Shown here piece by piece: positions 9,717 to 59,415 of a DNA stretch of 64,000 nucleotides (positions are counted from its first letter, which is position 1; each line of letters starts with the position of its first letter). The stretch lies in the sequence record MF327009, one strand, 5' to 3'. Below the pieces are notes generated by a model. The model was not told where the DNA came from, ran no database searches, and saw only the letters and a list, made by a program, of their open reading frames with translations. Source of the DNA: Shigella phage Sf25. Made by a program: the position numbers and the translations under genes.

Positions 9717-10163
9717 TTATAGATTAAATCCTTCAAAATCAAGAGTATAGATAGTATATGTTGAATACTTTTTGTACTCATATCTATCTGCAATTCTAAA
9801 TACACTTCCAGCTGGTATCATTACTTCTTGTTCATCTGAAACTAATTCCATATTACGATAACGATGACTATCCGGAAACTTAAAGTTTGGATTGTATTCT
9901 TTACAGCGTAGAGCTTTTATAGCATACTCCTGGAAATTGAATACCATAGGAGCTTTGAATTCAAAAATAACTTGTGTGTTATACTCTAAAATTTCATTTA
10001 ACCAAGTATGGTCATCTGGTTTATTAGTAATACAATGAATTAAAAGTTCAATTTCAGATAAATTAAACCCTTCAGAAAGTAATTCTTCACGAATAGAAGC
10101 ACGCACCGATGCATCCATTGATTTTATTTTAAAATCTTTTAGTTGCATTACTGAGTATTTCAT
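9717..10163 (-). CDS. ModA-like protein, short (148 aa), ADP-ribosyltransferase-like C-terminal motif only
   Basis: SDEQEVMIPAG resembles the ExE region of the adjacent ModB-like ORF (REQEWMIPIG); R and STS motifs not found. Confidence 0.45.
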   Translation of the reverse strand: MKYSVMQLKDFKIKSMDASVRASIREELLSEGFNLSEIELLIHCITNKPDDHTWLNEILEYNTQVIFEFKAPMVFNFQEYAIKALRCKEYNPNFKFPDSHRYRNMELVSDEQEVMIPAGSVFRIADRYEYKKYSTYTIYTLDFEGFNL

Positions 10164-10783
10164 TCAACTACCTCAATATCATAAACTTTAAATGTTCCAA
10201 ATGAATCGTGTAATTTTTCTTTTGAAATAGAAGTTATTCTATACTTTCCAATTGGAATCATCCATTCTTGTTCACGCACAATCATCATTAAGTTATCAGT
10301 ACGCTCTGAATCTAGCCCATCAGTATCTTCATACGTGTACTTAAACTCAGTATTAGGAGAAGAAAGTATAATATCGCTGATATGGTCAGAATAATTAAAA
10401 GCTTTATCAGTTTTTAAGCGAAATATTATTTCAGTGAAATACTCAACATAAGAAAAACCACATGCTGTGTGCAAACTAGTAGTAAATGAATCTACCCTAT
10501 TCGTTGAAAACACTTCTCCAACTTGTAAATCTTTAATGAGTTCTTTTGTCGATTTTGATATACCACGATATAACTGATAAGGTGATTTAGTTAAATGCTT
10601 TTTAACGATTTTATTCAACTGCCGATGAAGAGCTTCATTCTTTTTAGCTTCCATACATTGCCAAAGAACAGACTGCTCAAAGTCAGTAAATTTTTCACAG
10701 ACTTTTTTATACATATCATATTGAAAATCGACACTTTCAGCTTTTATAGATAACTGTTCAACATCTGCAAGATTAATAATCAT
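10160..10783 (-). CDS. ModB-like ADP-ribosyltransferase (207 aa)
   Basis: R (LYRG), STS-like (FSTNRVDSFTTS) and ExE (REQEW) motifs in canonical order; length as T4 ModB. Confidence 0.5.
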   Translation of the reverse strand: MIINLADVEQLSIKAESVDFQYDMYKKVCEKFTDFEQSVLWQCMEAKKNEALHRQLNKIVKKHLTKSPYQLYRGISKSTKELIKDLQVGEVFSTNRVDSFTTSLHTACGFSYVEYFTEIIFRLKTDKAFNYSDHISDIILSSPNTEFKYTYEDTDGLDSERTDNLMMIVREQEWMIPIGKYRITSISKEKLHDSFGTFKVYDIEVVE

Positions 10784-17180: not shown

Positions 17181-17807
17181 TTAACCTCTATTCATAAAAG
17201 CATTAAAAATTTGGTCATCAATAGAAACATTTACTTTAGACTGTTTTTCTGATGGTAATTCATATCCACATATCACAATTTTATGATCAATATCAAAATA
17301 CACAGAAGCAATATGATTAATGATATTTTCAGTGAAGTCTAAATCGACATCAATATCTTTTTGACCAAAGCCCAAAGGATAAATAATGCGAGTAATTCGA
17401 TTATCTTTAACAAAGATTCCACCGACATACTCTGTACTGCGTTTAAAGTCTACACGCCGACGAAATGAAAAATATTCAGGCTCTTTATGAGCTCGGCTCA
17501 TAGGACACAACGAATAACTAGAATAAGAGATGTCAAATCCTACGCCTTCAATATGAGCCAAAGTGTCATGATTAAACCAATTATAATCGTACGCCAAATC
17601 CATTAGATTATAATATGTAAAAGGCACCGGATTAACATCATTAGTCACAAGCATGTAATTAGCAACTGCTATAATTTCATTGTTTTTAACGAATACAAAC
17701 CGTGATTGATGCGAATGACCTGGACCCGCGTTTTCACGATTAATGATATAACACTGGGCACCTTTATATTTGTATGTATCTTTGCACTTGTGCATTTGAT
17801 AGAGCAT
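17181..17807 (-). CDS. hypothetical protein, 61.2 position
   Basis: 208 aa ORF at the position of T4 61.2. Confidence 0.5.
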   Translation of the reverse strand: MLYQMHKCKDTYKYKGAQCYIINRENAGPGHSHQSRFVFVKNNEIIAVANYMLVTNDVNPVPFTYYNLMDLAYDYNWFNHDTLAHIEGVGFDISYSSYSLCPMSRAHKEPEYFSFRRRVDFKRSTEYVGGIFVKDNRITRIIYPLGFGQKDIDVDLDFTENIINHIASVYFDIDHKIVICGYELPSEKQSKVNVSIDDQIFNAFMNRG

Positions 17808-56257: not shown

Positions 56258-56839
56258 CTAACCGAGCTTTTTAGTTAATTCATTCCAATGTTTTCTGCAC
56301 AAAGAAACATAAATTTCATCACCAATACAGATTTGATTACCTTCTTTAACTGGTGTTCCATCTTCCATTAATCGAGCTGTCATAATAGCTTTTTTACCAC
56401 AATGACAAACTGCTTTTAGTTCAATAAGTTTATCTGCAATCGCCAAAAGTTCTTTAGAACCTTCAAATAATTTTCCAGCGAAATCAGTCCTTAGTCCATA
56501 AGCCATAACAGGAACATTATATGTATCAACAATTCGGCTTAATTGATGCACCTGTTCAGTTTTTAAAAACTGAGCTTCATCTACAAATACACAATGAATA
56601 TCTTTTTGTGCTTCAGCCCATTTATAGAACTCAAAAATATCCATATCATCCGTAATAATATTCGCTTCCTGCTTAATTCCAATGCGAGAAACGACTTCAC
56701 AGACAGAATCGCGAGTATCAATAGCAGGTTTAAGAACTAATACACCCATTCCGCGTTCTTTATAATTATGCGCAGCAGTCAAAAGAGAAGCAGATTTTCC
56801 AGCATTCATTGCTGCATAAGTAAAAATTAAACTCGCCAT
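56258..56839 (-). CDS. tk: thymidine kinase, 193 aa
   Basis: Walker A NAGKSASL, C-terminal zinc ribbon CHCG...C..H; T4 Tk length. Confidence 0.9.
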   Translation of the reverse strand: MASLIFTYAAMNAGKSASLLTAAHNYKERGMGVLVLKPAIDTRDSVCEVVSRIGIKQEANIITDDMDIFEFYKWAEAQKDIHCVFVDEAQFLKTEQVHQLSRIVDTYNVPVMAYGLRTDFAGKLFEGSKELLAIADKLIELKAVCHCGKKAIMTARLMEDGTPVKEGNQICIGDEIYVSLCRKHWNELTKKLG

Positions 56840-56848
56840 ATCACCTTC

Positions 56849-57034
56849 TTAAAGCGTATTCACATAAGCTATTAATTCGTTTTCTTTCTTATCAAACCGG
56901 TCAGCAAATTCTTCTTGCTGTTCGGGAGATAGCGGGCCGTATTCATCATAAAAGGTGTTTGCTTCTGTATGCTCATCTAGAAGTTCATGGATAAGCTCAA
57001 ACAATTTATCTTTTTGTTCTTTGCTTAGGCTCAC
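56849..57034 (-). CDS. hypothetical acidic protein
   Basis: ORF track. Confidence 0.4.
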   Translation of the reverse strand: MSLSKEQKDKLFELIHELLDEHTEANTFYDEYGPLSPEQQEEFADRFDKKENELIAYVNTL

Positions 57035-57203
57035 AGTATGTCAATCCCCAAAAGTTTTAAAATGACTCGTTTCTGATTCATAACCGCTACGATTGAATGA
57101 CCGTTGGGGTCTTTTTGACCTGATCCAATTATAAATCCTTTTTGCGCAGAAAGTTTAATCAAAACATCAAGTTCACGTAATAATTGATATTTTAAATCAT
57201 CAT

Positions 57204-57431
57204 TCATTTTGGTTTACCTTCTTTAACGAAATCAGGATAAGGATAAAATCCTGAATAAAATCCTTCACCTTTATGATTGATGCATCCTTTATTAGAACAA
57301 TAGCACCAATAATCGAAATCACAAGCCATTTCATCGTTGCATAAAGCAAAAACAACCGGCCACTTACACTTTTCACAGTGGGCATTTTTAAGAATACTAG
57401 TTTGGCTCATAACCATGTAACCTTTAAGCAA
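57204..57431 (-). CDS. Cys-rich small protein (putative zinc binding)
   Basis: CEKCKW...CNDEMACDFDYWCYCSNKGC. Confidence 0.4.
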   Translation of the reverse strand: MLKGYMVMSQTSILKNAHCEKCKWPVVFALCNDEMACDFDYWCYCSNKGCINHKGEGFYSGFYPYPDFVKEGKPK

Positions 57432-57619
57432 TATTCTTCTACATGTTGTTTACGACCTTTCTTATCAATAAAGGTATATTCAACGAATGTTCCAATGTAG
57501 TCTTTATCTACATCATGTGGACTATTAATTGGACATTTAGTACGGCAAATGCGTTCCCATTGACGAATAATTACTGCTTTGTTTTTAGGATCAAACGGAT
57601 GTGGGTAATGCACTTTCAT
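57407..57619 (-). CDS. hypothetical protein
   Basis: ORF track. Confidence 0.35.
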   Translation of the reverse strand: MKVHYPHPFDPKNKAVIIRQWERICRTKCPINSPHDVDKDYIGTFVEYTFIDKKGRKQHVEEYCLKVTWL

Positions 57620-58070
57620 AATCCACCGCTATTAAATCAATATCAGGAGTAAACATGTCGATTAATTTAGAAACCTTATCCCAATCGCCGCCAGCAATAC
57701 CACAACCTATGCGTGGAATGTAAATTACCGGTTTAAACAAAAGGGTTTCTGCCTGTAGATTTAATTCTATCATGCAGTTTACTAAAGCACCATAATCAAG
57801 ATTAGGACCTGGTTCGTATTGCGTATACAGGTTATAGCATATACCAAATCCCGTAGGACTATGTTTAAAAACAATAGACATATCGCCTAATTTATCGCGA
57901 GAACCGTACTCAGTAGTGGTTTTATCTATTTCTAAAATTTTGGGATAGGCTCTGGCTAATTGACCCGCTACACCTGAACCCATAGTATGAAAACAATTGC
58001 ACCCGTGCGCAATAATATTACCTTGAAGAAATAGGGCGACAATATCGCCCTTGATATATTTTACAATCAT
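57591..58070 (-). CDS. macro-domain protein (ADP-ribose binding/processing fold)
   Basis: GDIV...IAHGCNCF...GSGVAGQL...IPRIGCGIAGGDW aligns with canonical macro-domain motifs (NAAN / GGGV / GxG). Confidence 0.6.
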   Translation of the reverse strand: MIVKYIKGDIVALFLQGNIIAHGCNCFHTMGSGVAGQLARAYPKILEIDKTTTEYGSRDKLGDMSIVFKHSPTGFGICYNLYTQYEPGPNLDYGALVNCMIELNLQAETLLFKPVIYIPRIGCGIAGGDWDKVSKLIDMFTPDIDLIAVDYESALPTSV

Positions 58071-58408
58071 CTAGTACTCAATCCTCGATTATAAGAATCT
58101 ACCAAACGGTCAACCATTGAATGACAAGCGGCTTTATCTTTTTCCTCCGCAACTGAACATTCTAAGGTATTCCACTTTTTAGCATATCGTTTTAACAATG
58201 TATCATTTTTGTATCTGCTTGATTTATCTCTTTCTCCGTCTTTATATGCATATATTAATTTCTGTGCAAATTCAGCTTGGCATGCTTTATTTTTCCCGCA
58301 ATAATCCGCTGCAGTACGGTTTACATACTCTCTAATTTCAGTATATGATGTATCTGCTAACGCAGAAAATGAAATTAATCCTATACATAAAACCAAAATT
58401 TTAGTCAT
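58067..58408 (-). CDS. small secreted protein
   Basis: N-terminal signal peptide MTKILVLCIGLISFSALA. Confidence 0.4.
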   Translation of the reverse strand: MTKILVLCIGLISFSALADTSYTEIREYVNRTAADYCGKNKACQAEFAQKLIYAYKDGERDKSSRYKNDTLLKRYAKKWNTLECSVAEEKDKAACHSMVDRLVDSYNRGLSTR

Positions 58409-58946
58409 TTACTATTTCCAAAAGTTTATTATTTTTAAGGTAATTAGCCTTTTCTAGGACTTCAGAAGCATATTTAGAACCAGCTTTAACATTCCATCCC
58501 GAATTATAAGAGGATATTGCTTTTCTTATATCGCCCTTATGTATATTTAACCAATAAGAAAGTTCAATGTACGCCCAGGAAGCTGAATTGGACCGTTTAT
58601 TCAACATTCTTTTTATTTCAGCATCGGTCATATTATAACCAAGTTCCTTAACTCTTGCTCGCATAGTAGGCAAATAATTTTGGAACATTCCATAAGCGTG
58701 ATGCTTTGGTTTAGATTTTAAATTAACTCCGCCAGAGCTTTCTTGCCATAAAATAGCAGCCATTATATGACCTAATCCGCTCTTGTGGATATTTTTGTGT
58801 GTTTTATATTTTCCATCCTTAGAAAATTGTTCCCCGAATTGATACGCGTAACGCATGTTATCGAGTTGGACATTACTGAAAGTATGCTCGGAGCTATGTG
58901 CCATCATTGAAATGGCCAATAGACCAGCGAGTAGTGCTTTTCTCAT
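58401..58946 (-). CDS. periplasmic lytic transglycosylase-like protein
   Basis: Signal peptide plus SLT family-1 motifs (ILWQESSGG, YGMFQ, SYNSG). Confidence 0.6.
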   Translation of the reverse strand: MRKALLAGLLAISMMAHSSEHTFSNVQLDNMRYAYQFGEQFSKDGKYKTHKNIHKSGLGHIMAAILWQESSGGVNLKSKPKHHAYGMFQNYLPTMRARVKELGYNMTDAEIKRMLNKRSNSASWAYIELSYWLNIHKGDIRKAISSYNSGWNVKAGSKYASEVLEKANYLKNNKLLEIVND

Positions 58947-58953
58947 GCTTACC

Positions 58954-59415
58954 TCATTGAGTTTTAATTACTGCTTTAGAAGCCTTTCCTGGTAAACGAC
59001 GACTGTTGATAATTGCCATCCTGCATTGAAGTGACGGGTTTTTAAACTTCTCATTAGGCTTACAAACTGTAAATCCAAGCCAAAGATTTCCATCTGTGAT
59101 TTCTAAACGTCCAGGACGATATTCAACCCCATCAATAAAATCCTCGTCAATGTCAGGACGCGGAGGCATACTCAGGAATTCATTAACTTCTAAAACATGG
59201 TCTTTTATTTTATGGAATAATTCAAAAACATATGTCTCATCAATCTCCCGTTGAATTGCACGATCAAGAAGATGCTGAGAATATTTTAGATGAAACGATG
59301 AGACCCCTGCTGCTTTTGATGCCTCACGAATCTCATTGTTAATTTGACGAAACTCCGACTCAAAATGACGACGAAGCTTATTTCGACGGATAAAAACTTC
59401 TGTATTGATAGTCAT
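58954..59415 (-). CDS. regB: RegB site-specific endoribonuclease, 153 aa
   Basis: 153-aa ORF MTINTEVFIRRNKLRRHFESEF... matching T4 RegB length and N-terminus as recalled. Confidence 0.8.
   Translation of the reverse strand: MTINTEVFIRRNKLRRHFESEFRQINNEIREASKAAGVSSFHLKYSQHLLDRAIQREIDETYVFELFHKIKDHVLEVNEFLSMPPRPDIDEDFIDGVEYRPGRLEITDGNLWLGFTVCKPNEKFKNPSLQCRMAIINSRRLPGKASKAVIKTQ

What the first reader, a model, noticed from the sequence alone, without database searches (positions are those of the whole stretch)
57591..58070. Macro-domain protein in the tk-regB accessory cluster
The 159-aa ORF has the hallmark macro-domain motifs (GDI, HGCNCF in place of NAAN, GSGVAGQL, IGCGIAGGDW). Macro domains bind or hydrolyse ADP-ribose conjugates. 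In a phage that carries its own ADP-ribosyltransferase-like genes and meets ADP-ribosylating host defences, this could be a reversal or counter-defence enzyme.
Basis: partly seen in the sequence, partly recalled or inferred. Interest (0 to 1): 0.55.

Follow-up and report, generated by a model that had tools for sequence, protein, structure and literature searches.

The report
T4 Tk.4/AdfM macrodomain, divergent allele
This gene is a T4-like phage's copy of tk.4 (adfM), a small macrodomain enzyme already reported to protect phage T4 from the bacterial DarTG2 defence that tags DNA with ADP-ribose, so the finding is correct but already known.

Summary
A 159-aa ORF lies at 57591..58070 (-) with all four quoted motifs. 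It passes Pfam Macro (32 bits, cut-off 22). Its AlphaFold model (pLDDT 93.8) matches TARG1, Poa1p, DarG and BT1257.

The window is a Tequatrovirus. The ORF sits in the T4 tk.4 slot, between vs and tk.3, and is 58% identical to T4 Tk.4.

A 2025 preprint showed that a T4 tk.4 knockout becomes sensitive to DarTG2, and renamed the gene adfM. The target is host DarT2 marks on DNA thymidine, not the phage's own Alt/Mod marks.

This analysis adds three points:
- **Active-site type.** The family has an invariant Gln84 where DarG and TARG1 carry their catalytic lysine. It also has His22, Asn25 and a PRIGCGIAGGDW loop. This is the signature of Streptomyces SCO6735, a proven thymidine-ADP-ribose DNA hydrolase. 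PhiKZ "AdfM" is a different, lysine-type lineage.
- **Bacterial relatives.** They are stand-alone genes; no darT was detected next to any of them.
- **Allele cassette.** The gene is sharply bounded in DNA otherwise about 97-100% identical to T4. The window-type allele occurs in about 312 phage records and the T4 type in about 224.

No biochemistry exists for either allele.

The parts
57591..58070 (-). tk.4 / adfM orthologue: a 159-aa single-domain macrodomain protein (17.4 kDa, pI 5.0)
57993..58007 (-). His22-Gly-Cys-Asn25-Cys, the first active-site motif (the position of NAAN in MacroD-type domains)
   Evidence: H22, G23, N25 and C26 are invariant in 71 phage/metagenome homologues and 51 bacterial homologues. 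The motif aligns with SCO6735 H24-V25-C-N27, Poa1p H23-S-C-N, and with N23 of PhiKZ AdfM, whose N23A mutant has reduced activity.
57966..57980 (-). Gly31-Ser-Gly33-Val-Ala35, phosphate-binding loop 1
   Evidence: G33 and A35 are invariant; G31 is invariant across all 13 ALC1-class sequences aligned.
57819..57833 (-). Asn80-Leu-Tyr-Thr-Gln84; Gln84 occupies the position of the catalytic Lys of DarG (K80) and TARG1 (K84) and of SCO6735 Gln85
   Evidence: hhalign to Taq DarG. hmmsearch alignment to TARG1 and BT1257. MAFFT of 13 sequences. N80, Y82 and Q84 are invariant in 71 plus 51 homologues. SCO6735 Q85A is inactive (PMC9411070).
57681..57716 (-). Pro119-Arg-Ile-Gly-Cys-Gly-Ile-Ala-Gly-Gly-Asp-Trp130, phosphate/distal-ribose loop 2
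   Evidence: Near-identical to SCO6735 PRIGCGLAGGTW and BT1257 PRIGCGLAGGKW. TARG1 has its catalytic D125 where Ala126 sits here. The T4 allele deviates (GAGIGKGNW).
58033..58051 (-). GC-rich 8-bp hairpin followed by a U-rich tail, inside codons 7-13 of the gene; a possible attenuator, role unproven
   Evidence: Terminator-like scan hit. Forms in the MFE fold, but the region's z-score is only -1.7. Identical in T4. Annotated as a rho-independent terminator in OL631480.

Best explanation
The ORF is this Tequatrovirus's allele of T4 tk.4 (adfM). It encodes a stand-alone ALC1/TARG1-class macrodomain hydrolase that is probably made early in infection. The proposed mechanism is as follows. Host DarT2 attaches ADP-ribose to thymidine in TNTC motifs of single-stranded phage DNA and blocks replication. 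This protein binds the ADP-ribose between its two glycine-rich loops and cleaves the thymidine-ribose bond, releasing ADP-ribose and restoring the base. The chemistry is probably the lysine-independent kind described for Streptomyces SCO6735. In that enzyme a Gln (Gln84 here) positions the distal ribose, and a backbone-held water near the His-x-x-Asn motif (His22 and Asn25 here) starts the reaction. Shown here: domain identity, fold, orthology, active-site signature and distribution. Shown elsewhere, for the T4 allele only: the DarTG2-specific requirement. Inferred: that this 58%-identical allele does the same job, and that it acts by hydrolysis of thymidine-ADP-ribose.
Against: No enzymology exists for any Tk.4-family protein; the T4 authors themselves only say removal of ADP-ribose 'seems likely'. 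The window allele is only 58% identical to the tested one and has never been tested. It lacks the longer Lys-bearing mobile loop credited with SCO6735's DNA binding and processivity. Overall identity to SCO6735 is only 26%. The N-terminal motif HxCNC is equally Poa1p-like, and Poa1p acts on small ADP-ribose derivatives. Catalytically dead SCO6735 and DarG can still inhibit DarT by binding, so protection need not be purely enzymatic.
Confidence: 0.7

Rival explanations
1. The protein is a small-molecule ADP-ribose-derivative hydrolase. It would act as an ADP-ribose-1''-phosphate phosphatase or O-acetyl-ADP-ribose deacetylase like yeast Poa1p, or it would degrade ADP-ribose-derived immune signals or toxic metabolites. 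Its main substrate would not be DNA.
Against: The only phenotype known for the orthologue is specific to DarTG2, a DNA-modifying system. Poa1p has Ser, not Gln, at position 84, Phe152 where Ala126 sits, and a roughly 22-residue insertion absent here. The loop-2 and Gln signature matches the DNA hydrolase SCO6735 instead.
Confidence: 0.12
2. The protein protects mainly by binding and blocking the DarT2 toxin, as an antitoxin mimic. Catalysis would be dispensable.
For: Catalytically dead SCO6735 Q85A, DarG K80A and TARG1 K84A all inhibit DarT in vitro, SCO6735 most strongly (PMC9411070). Other phage anti-DarT factors are described as toxin-directed: the mBio title calls the ICP1 factor an 'antitoxin mimic', and the Nat Commun authors suggest T4 AdfA neutralises another DarT homologue. 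Sharp allelic diversification of the gene would fit co-evolution with a protein partner.
Against: Every active-site residue is invariant across phage and bacterial homologues, which argues for selection on catalysis. The protein has no equivalent of DarG's C-terminal DarT-binding domain, being a 159-aa single domain. No darT neighbour was found among the bacterial homologues.
Confidence: 0.08
3. The protein erases marks made by the phage's own ADP-ribosyltransferases (Alt, ModA, ModB): protein Arg-ADP-ribose or RNAylation. This would tune or time host takeover.
Against: No T4 phenotype of tk.4 was reported without DarTG2. Characterised ALC1-class macrodomains act on Asp/Glu esters and thymidine; from general knowledge, Arg-ADP-ribose is reversed by ARH/DraG-type enzymes. 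modA in this window carries a 52-codon in-frame deletion, yet tk.4 is intact.
Confidence: 0.04
4. The protein is a hydrolase for Asp/Glu-linked protein ADP-ribosylation, or for RNA ADP-ribosylation, installed by some other host defence ART. The DarTG2 effect would be a side activity.
For: SCO6735 and TARG1 also de-modify Glu/Asp-linked PARP1. ADP-ribosylating defences other than DarT exist.
Against: No genetic evidence exists; HIDEN-SEQ reported tk.4 only for DarTG2 among the systems screened.
Confidence: 0.05

Closest known systems
Phage T4 Tk.4 = AdfM (anti-DarT factor Macrodomain), NP_049723 (bioRxiv 10.1101/2025.11.20.689424)
   Same: Same genomic slot (vs | tk.4 | tk.3), same length class and 58% identity at E=4e-70. 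All 14 family-invariant residues are shared, including H22, N25 and Q84.
   Different: The interior of the gene is a different allele cassette, 40-72% nt identical inside DNA that is otherwise about 97-100% identical. Loop 2 here is the family consensus GCGIAGGDW, whereas T4 has the atypical GAGIGKGNW. A 13-nt deletion gives a different C-terminal tail of 4 extra residues that overlaps tk.3. Only the T4 allele has been tested genetically.
Streptomyces coelicolor SCO6735 (PDB 5E3B) and Bacteroides BT1257 (2AFC/2FG1)
   Different: Only 26% identity. The phage protein lacks the extended Lys-bearing mobile loop and is acidic (pI 5.0, against 9.7 for SCO6735 and 8.7 for BT1257). The local motifs differ: NxYTQ against NMIGQHG, and HGCNC against HxCND.
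DarG antitoxin macrodomain (T. aquaticus 5M31, M. tuberculosis 5M3I) and PhiKZ gp104 'AdfM'
   Different: DarG and PhiKZ gp104 have the FPTK catalytic lysine, an N/T-x-V-N first motif and a PPLG-x-x-NGGL loop. PhiKZ gp104 matches Mtb DarG at E=9e-25, but matches the window protein only at E=0.001 over 33 residues. The NCBIfam DarG equivalog scores 27 bits against a cut-off of 250. There is no C-terminal DarT-binding domain and no adjacent toxin.
Human TARG1/OARD1 (4J5S)
   Same: Best Foldseek hit (E=1.7e-10, TM 0.74-0.84). It shares the His and the PRIGCG start of loop 2, and it also cleaves thymidine-ADP-ribose.
   Different: TARG1's catalytic pair K84/D125 is replaced by Q84/A126 here.
Yeast Poa1p (6LFQ), ADP-ribose-1''-phosphate phosphatase
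   Different: Poa1p has Ser at position 84, PQINSGIFGVPW in loop 2 and a roughly 22-residue insertion. Its known substrates are small molecules.

Membership tests
Macro domain superfamily (Pfam PF01661) | Profile score above the curated gathering threshold | tested here: met
   32 bits against a cut-off of 22, E=1.3e-7, profile positions 2-117 of 118.
Macro domain superfamily (Pfam PF01661) | Three-layer alpha/beta/alpha macro fold with a central mixed sheet | tested here: met
Macro domain superfamily (Pfam PF01661) | Binds ADP-ribose | not testable with these tools
   Only the two Gly-rich loops that contact the diphosphate in homologues are seen to be conserved.
ALC1-like / TARG1 / Poa1p-like macrodomain class | Nearest structural neighbours are members of this class, clearly separated from MacroD-, PARG- and macroH2A-type domains | tested here: met
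T4 Tk.4 / AdfM orthologous group | Encoded between vs and tk.3 in a Tevenvirinae genome | tested here: met
T4 Tk.4 / AdfM orthologous group | Full-length sequence homology to T4 Tk.4 | tested here: met
   58% identity over 155 aa with no gaps, E=4e-70.
T4 Tk.4 / AdfM orthologous group | Required for growth on DarTG2-expressing hosts | not testable with these tools
   Shown only for the T4 allele.
DarG antitoxin (NCBIfam NF048014 equivalog) | Score above the equivalog cut-off | tested here: not met
   27 bits against a cut-off of 250; only the macro part of the 338-position profile matches.
DarG antitoxin (NCBIfam NF048014 equivalog) | Catalytic lysine (Taq K80) in the FPTK motif | tested here: not met
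   Gln84 occupies that column and is invariant in 122 homologues.
DarG antitoxin (NCBIfam NF048014 equivalog) | C-terminal DarT-binding domain and an adjacent darT gene | tested here: not met
   The protein is a 159-aa single domain and its neighbours are vs and tk.3. No DarT2 hit at E<0.1 was found near the 80 bacterial homologue loci. Pfam was run on the immediate neighbours in 51 of those loci, and DarT is not among the 25 families listed of 147 found.
SCO6735-type (Gln-type) thymidine-ADP-ribose DNA hydrolases | Gln at the position of the DarG/TARG1 catalytic Lys | tested here: met
   Q84 aligns with SCO6735 Q85 and the BT1257 Gln.
SCO6735-type (Gln-type) thymidine-ADP-ribose DNA hydrolases | His-x-x-Asn first motif (H24, V25, N27) and the PRIGCGLAGGxW loop | tested here: met
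   H22-G-C-N25 and PRIGCGIAGGDW.
SCO6735-type (Gln-type) thymidine-ADP-ribose DNA hydrolases | Mobile loop about 5 residues longer than in DarG/TARG1, carrying Lys89 and Lys94 | tested here: not met
   The loop after Q84 is as short as in DarG/TARG1 and carries no Lys (YEPGPN).
SCO6735-type (Gln-type) thymidine-ADP-ribose DNA hydrolases | Hydrolyses thymidine-linked ADP-ribose on ssDNA | not testable with these tools
   Needs an enzyme assay.
Poa1p ADP-ribose-1''-phosphate phosphatase | Residues probed in the Poa1p structures: H23, S30, F152 | tested here: inconclusive
   H22 is conserved, T29 replaces S30, and Ala126 replaces F152. Poa1p has Ser where Q84 sits, plus a roughly 22-residue insertion absent here.
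MacroD-type macrodomains | NAAN-type first motif and closest structural similarity to MacroD, Af1521 or viral X domains | tested here: not met

The most novel reading that the evidence does not exclude
T-even 'AdfM' may not be a captured DarG antitoxin. It would instead be a separate, lysine-independent Gln-type macrodomain lineage (SCO6735/BT1257-like), taken from stand-alone bacterial genes and convergent with the lysine-type DarG-like AdfM of chimalliviruses. In addition, the sharply bounded allele cassettes at this locus (window type, T4 type and at least two others) may differ in substrate or in DarT-variant specificity. That would mark an arms-race hot spot rather than neutral mosaicism.
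Probability: 0.2. Interest if true: 0.45.

Novelty: already known. Interest (0 to 1): 0.2.

Why it matters
The gene matters as one layer of T-even phages' defence against DarTG systems; AdfA and AdfN counter DarTG1, and Tk.4/AdfM counters DarTG2. That role is already published for T4, so the finding adds no new kind of system.

The useful increments are practical. First, the common 'phosphatase' label on this gene in hundreds of phage genomes is probably misleading. Second, mechanism studies should mutate Gln84, His22 and Asn25 rather than look for a DarG-like lysine. Third, two unrelated macrodomain lineages now share the name AdfM. Fourth, the most frequent Tequatrovirus allele, the one in this window, is not the one that was tested.

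Tried and rejected
- **DarG equivalog membership: rejected.** NCBIfam gives 27 bits against a cut-off of 250, the catalytic Lys is absent, and there is no second domain.
- **Identity with PhiKZ AdfM: rejected.** Similarity is only marginal, E=0.001 over 33 residues, while PhiKZ gp104 matches Mtb DarG at E=9e-25.
- **Toxin linkage in bacteria: none found.** tblastn with a P. aeruginosa DarT2 against 80 bacterial loci found nothing below E=0.69. A Pfam census of 98 flanking ORFs from 51 of those loci showed only heterogeneous housekeeping neighbours among the 25 families listed of 147 found. Both searches have limited sensitivity.
- **Direct SCO6735 alignment from the window sequence: partly failed.** Querying the PDB with the C-terminal 120 residues aligned only loop 2. 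The full SCO6735 sequence was recovered through BT1257 instead.
- **Promoter scan: uninformative.** It found 13 sites against 16.4 expected by chance.
- **The hairpin inside the 5' end of the gene: not significant.** The fold z-score is -1.7.
- **LeRoux 2022 (PMC9250638): not read.** The paper is not held in the library.
- **Overlapping genes: none.** No long ORF lies on the opposite strand.

Full report
**1. The observation**

The minus-strand ORF 57591..58070 encodes 159 aa starting with ATG. Its start codon overlaps the stop of the upstream gene (ATGA), and its last 29 nt overlap the start of the next gene.

The protein passes Pfam's curated threshold for the Macro domain: 32 bits against 22, E=1.3e-7, almost the whole profile. 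It also matches PHROG 335 at E=1.4e-70. No long competing ORF lies on the other strand.

**2. Where the window comes from and which gene this is**

The 2.5 kb around the ORF is 99.3% identical to Escherichia phage vB_EcoM_Kelasse and 99.2% identical to Yersinia phage phiD1. It matches 726 phage records, mostly Escherichia and Shigella T4-like phages. The window is therefore a Tequatrovirus.

In T4 itself the gene order is tk, tk.1, tk.2, tk.3, tk.4, vs, vs.1, regB. In the window:
- tk lies at 56258..56839.
- vs lies at 58067..58408.
- vs.1 lies at 58401..58946.
- regB lies at 58954..59415.

The ORF sits exactly in the tk.4 slot. It is 58% identical to T4 Tk.4 over 155 residues without gaps (E=4e-70), so it is the tk.4 orthologue.

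**3. What is already published**

- tk.4 orthologues were reported to match the A1pp/macro domain in 2006 (PMC1524935). The T4 RefSeq record calls the gene 'phosphatase; contains A1pp phosphatase motif'.
- T4 lacking the two known anti-DarT factors AdfA and AdfN stays resistant to DarTG2, so a further factor was predicted (PMC11825919).
- A transposon screen of T4 (HIDEN-SEQ, bioRxiv 10.1101/2025.11.20.689424) found tk.4 as the single gene depleted on a DarTG2 host. A clean deletion was sensitised. The authors renamed the gene adfM and proposed, without enzymology, that it removes ADP-ribose from DNA.
- T2 carries a Tk.4 100% identical to T4's, and that protein was detected in the T2 infected-cell proteome.

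**4. Fold**

An AlphaFold2 model built on 71 homologues is confident, with pLDDT 93.8 and pTM 0.89; only the last three residues are disordered.
- **Foldseek against the PDB.** The top hits are TARG1, Poa1p, T. aquaticus and M. tuberculosis DarG, and BT1257, all at probability 1.00.

The protein belongs to the ALC1/TARG1/Poa1p-like class.

**5. Active site: a Gln-type enzyme, not a DarG copy**

Across 71 phage and metagenome homologues the invariant residues are H22, G23, N25, C26, G33, A35, D49, N80, Y82, Q84, P119, G122, G124 and W130. The same residues, plus A126, G127 and G128, are invariant in 51 bacterial homologues.

Position 84 is the key column:
- Profile-profile alignment puts Gln84 on T. 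aquaticus DarG Lys80, in the motif FPT-K80-K-H-W83.
- hmmsearch puts Gln84 on TARG1 Lys84 and on the Gln of BT1257.
- A 13-sequence MAFFT alignment places window and T4 NLYTQ, SCO6735 and BT1257 NMIGQ, Poa1p LFTSS, TARG1 LITK, and DarG and PhiKZ FPTK in one column.

The SCO6735 residue numbering was checked against the mutants named in its paper (H24, N27, K34, Q85, K89), using the chain sequence recovered.

The literature on that enzyme is direct. SCO6735 hydrolyses thymidine-linked ADP-ribose on DNA. Gln85 sits at the position of the DarG/TARG1 catalytic lysine. Q85A is completely inactive. The proposed mechanism uses a water held by the backbone of Val25, the residue after His24 (PMC9411070; PMC9967889). 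An independent study confirmed its activity on synthetic substrates (PMC12879935).

The window protein also shares two other features with SCO6735:
- His-x-Cys-Asn: H22-G-C-N25 here, H24-V-C-N27 there.
- An almost identical second loop: PRIGCGIAGGDW here, PRIGCGLAGGTW there.

Asn25 also aligns with N23 of PhiKZ AdfM, whose N23A mutant is impaired.

There are differences from SCO6735. Overall identity is 26%. The extended Lys-bearing mobile loop is missing. The pI is acidic, 5.0 against 9.7. The acidic PhiKZ enzyme (pI 5.05) is nevertheless active on ADP-ribosylated ssDNA.

**6. Two different lineages share the name 'AdfM'**

PhiKZ gp104, named AdfM in Cell Rep 2026 (PMC13309987), matches Mtb DarG at E=9e-25 and keeps FPTK. 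It resembles the window protein only marginally, at E=0.001 over 33 residues.

The window protein's own profile ranks BT1257 (1.5e-18), TARG1 (2.2e-16), SCO6735 (1.7e-15) and Poa1p (2e-14) ahead of DarG (2.8e-11 and 3.3e-10). It reaches only 27 of the 250 bits needed for NCBIfam's DarG equivalog.

**7. Bacterial relatives**

At least 501 bacterial genome stretches encode relatives. No DarT2 homologue lies within 4 kb in the 80 best loci: the best tblastn E-value is 0.69. The immediate neighbours were examined in 51 of those loci (98 ORFs). They are heterogeneous and include rpoC, EamA transporters and, in three cases, NAMPT/NAPRTase.

The family therefore consists of stand-alone genes, like SCO6735, rather than antitoxins. 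Both searches have limited sensitivity.

**8. The allele**

Against T4, the DNA from rI through tk, and from tk.3, vs, vs.1 and regB, is about 97-100% identical. The tk.4 interior (about 57,620-58,030) drops to 40-72% identity. A second island (about 56,800-57,440) replaces tk.1/tk.2. The first ~70 nt of tk.4 are identical in both phages.

tblastn counts among phage records are as follows:

| Allele group | Records |
|---|---|
| 90% or more identical to the window protein | 312 |
| 60-80% identical to the window protein | 92 |
| 90% or more identical to T4 Tk.4 | 224 |
| 80-90% identical to T4 Tk.4 | 159 |

The window type is thus the commonest Tequatrovirus allele and is untested. Its loop 2 is the family consensus, whereas T4's GAGIGKGNW is the outlier.

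**9. Mechanism and confidence**

The most likely function is removal of DarT2-installed ADP-ribose from thymidine in single-stranded phage DNA by a lysine-independent, Gln84-dependent hydrolysis. I put this at 0.7.
- **Shown here:** domain, fold, orthology, active-site signature and distribution.
- **Shown elsewhere:** the DarTG2-specific requirement for the T4 allele, and the chemistry for SCO6735.
- **Inferred:** transfer of both to this allele.

The rivals are:
- Small-molecule ADP-ribose processing, Poa1p-like (0.12).
- Toxin binding without catalysis (0.08). Dead SCO6735 and DarG do inhibit DarT.
- Other macromolecular substrates (0.05).
- Erasing the phage's own Alt/Mod marks (0.04).

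Early expression is assumed from general knowledge of the T4 tk-regB region. The promoter scan here was uninformative.

**10. Verdict**

The feature is real and correctly read, but already known. The added value lies in the Gln-type classification, the distinction from DarG-like AdfM, the allele-cassette structure and a set of specific mutants to test. Interest is 0.2.

Noticed in passing
window 9717..10163 (-): The modA-like ADP-ribosyltransferase ORF is only 148 aa. It has an in-frame 52-codon internal deletion relative to phiD1 g020 (200 aa) and is otherwise nearly identical to it (143 of 148 aligned residues). The deletion removes the LWRG...SAS stretch. From memory, that stretch holds the Arg and Ser-x-Ser of the R-S-E ART motif, so ModA is probably inactive here. 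The adjacent modB-like ORF at 10160..10783 (-) is intact.
   Followed up: partly
window 58033..58051 (-), inside codons 7-13 of tk.4: A GC-rich 8-bp hairpin (AGGGCGAU-AUU-GUCGCCCU) followed by a U-rich tail. It is identical in T4 and is annotated as a rho-independent terminator in phage ECML-123-2. It lies in the ~70-nt 5' stretch of tk.4 that stays identical between alleles. The fold z-score is only -1.7, so it may be chance or an attenuator.
   Followed up: partly
window ~56,800..57,440 (-): A second divergence island relative to T4: the tk.1/tk.2 region is replaced. It includes an extra Cys-rich 75-aa ORF at 57204..57431 (PHROG 2306, unknown function) between tk.2 and tk.3 that T4 lacks.
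   Followed up: partly
window 57591..57619: A 13-nt deletion relative to T4, just before the tk.3 start, shifts the end of tk.4. Its last 9 codons plus the stop overlap tk.3 by 29 nt, against a 4-nt ATGA overlap in T4. The resulting tail (ALPTSV) is partly disordered in the model.
   Followed up: yes
window 17181..17807 (-): A 208-aa ORF, 98.7% nt-identical to phiD1 g038 (PHROG 3781, unknown function). By position and length it looks like the T4 61.2/AdfA orthologue, another anti-DarT factor. That assignment is from memory and was not tested.
   Followed up: no
loci L002-L081 (bacterial homologues): Bacterial members of the Tk.4 family have no conserved partner gene. Three sit next to NAMPT/NAPRTase (NAD salvage) genes and four next to rpoC. 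No DarT was detected.
   Followed up: partly
literature: T2 tk.4 transcript: A 2026 preprint reports that the T2 tk.4 mRNA pairs with the host sRNA ArcZ in RIL-seq, with no change in Tk.4 protein level in a delta-arcZ host. That paper mislabels tk.4 as a putative thymidine kinase.
   Followed up: no
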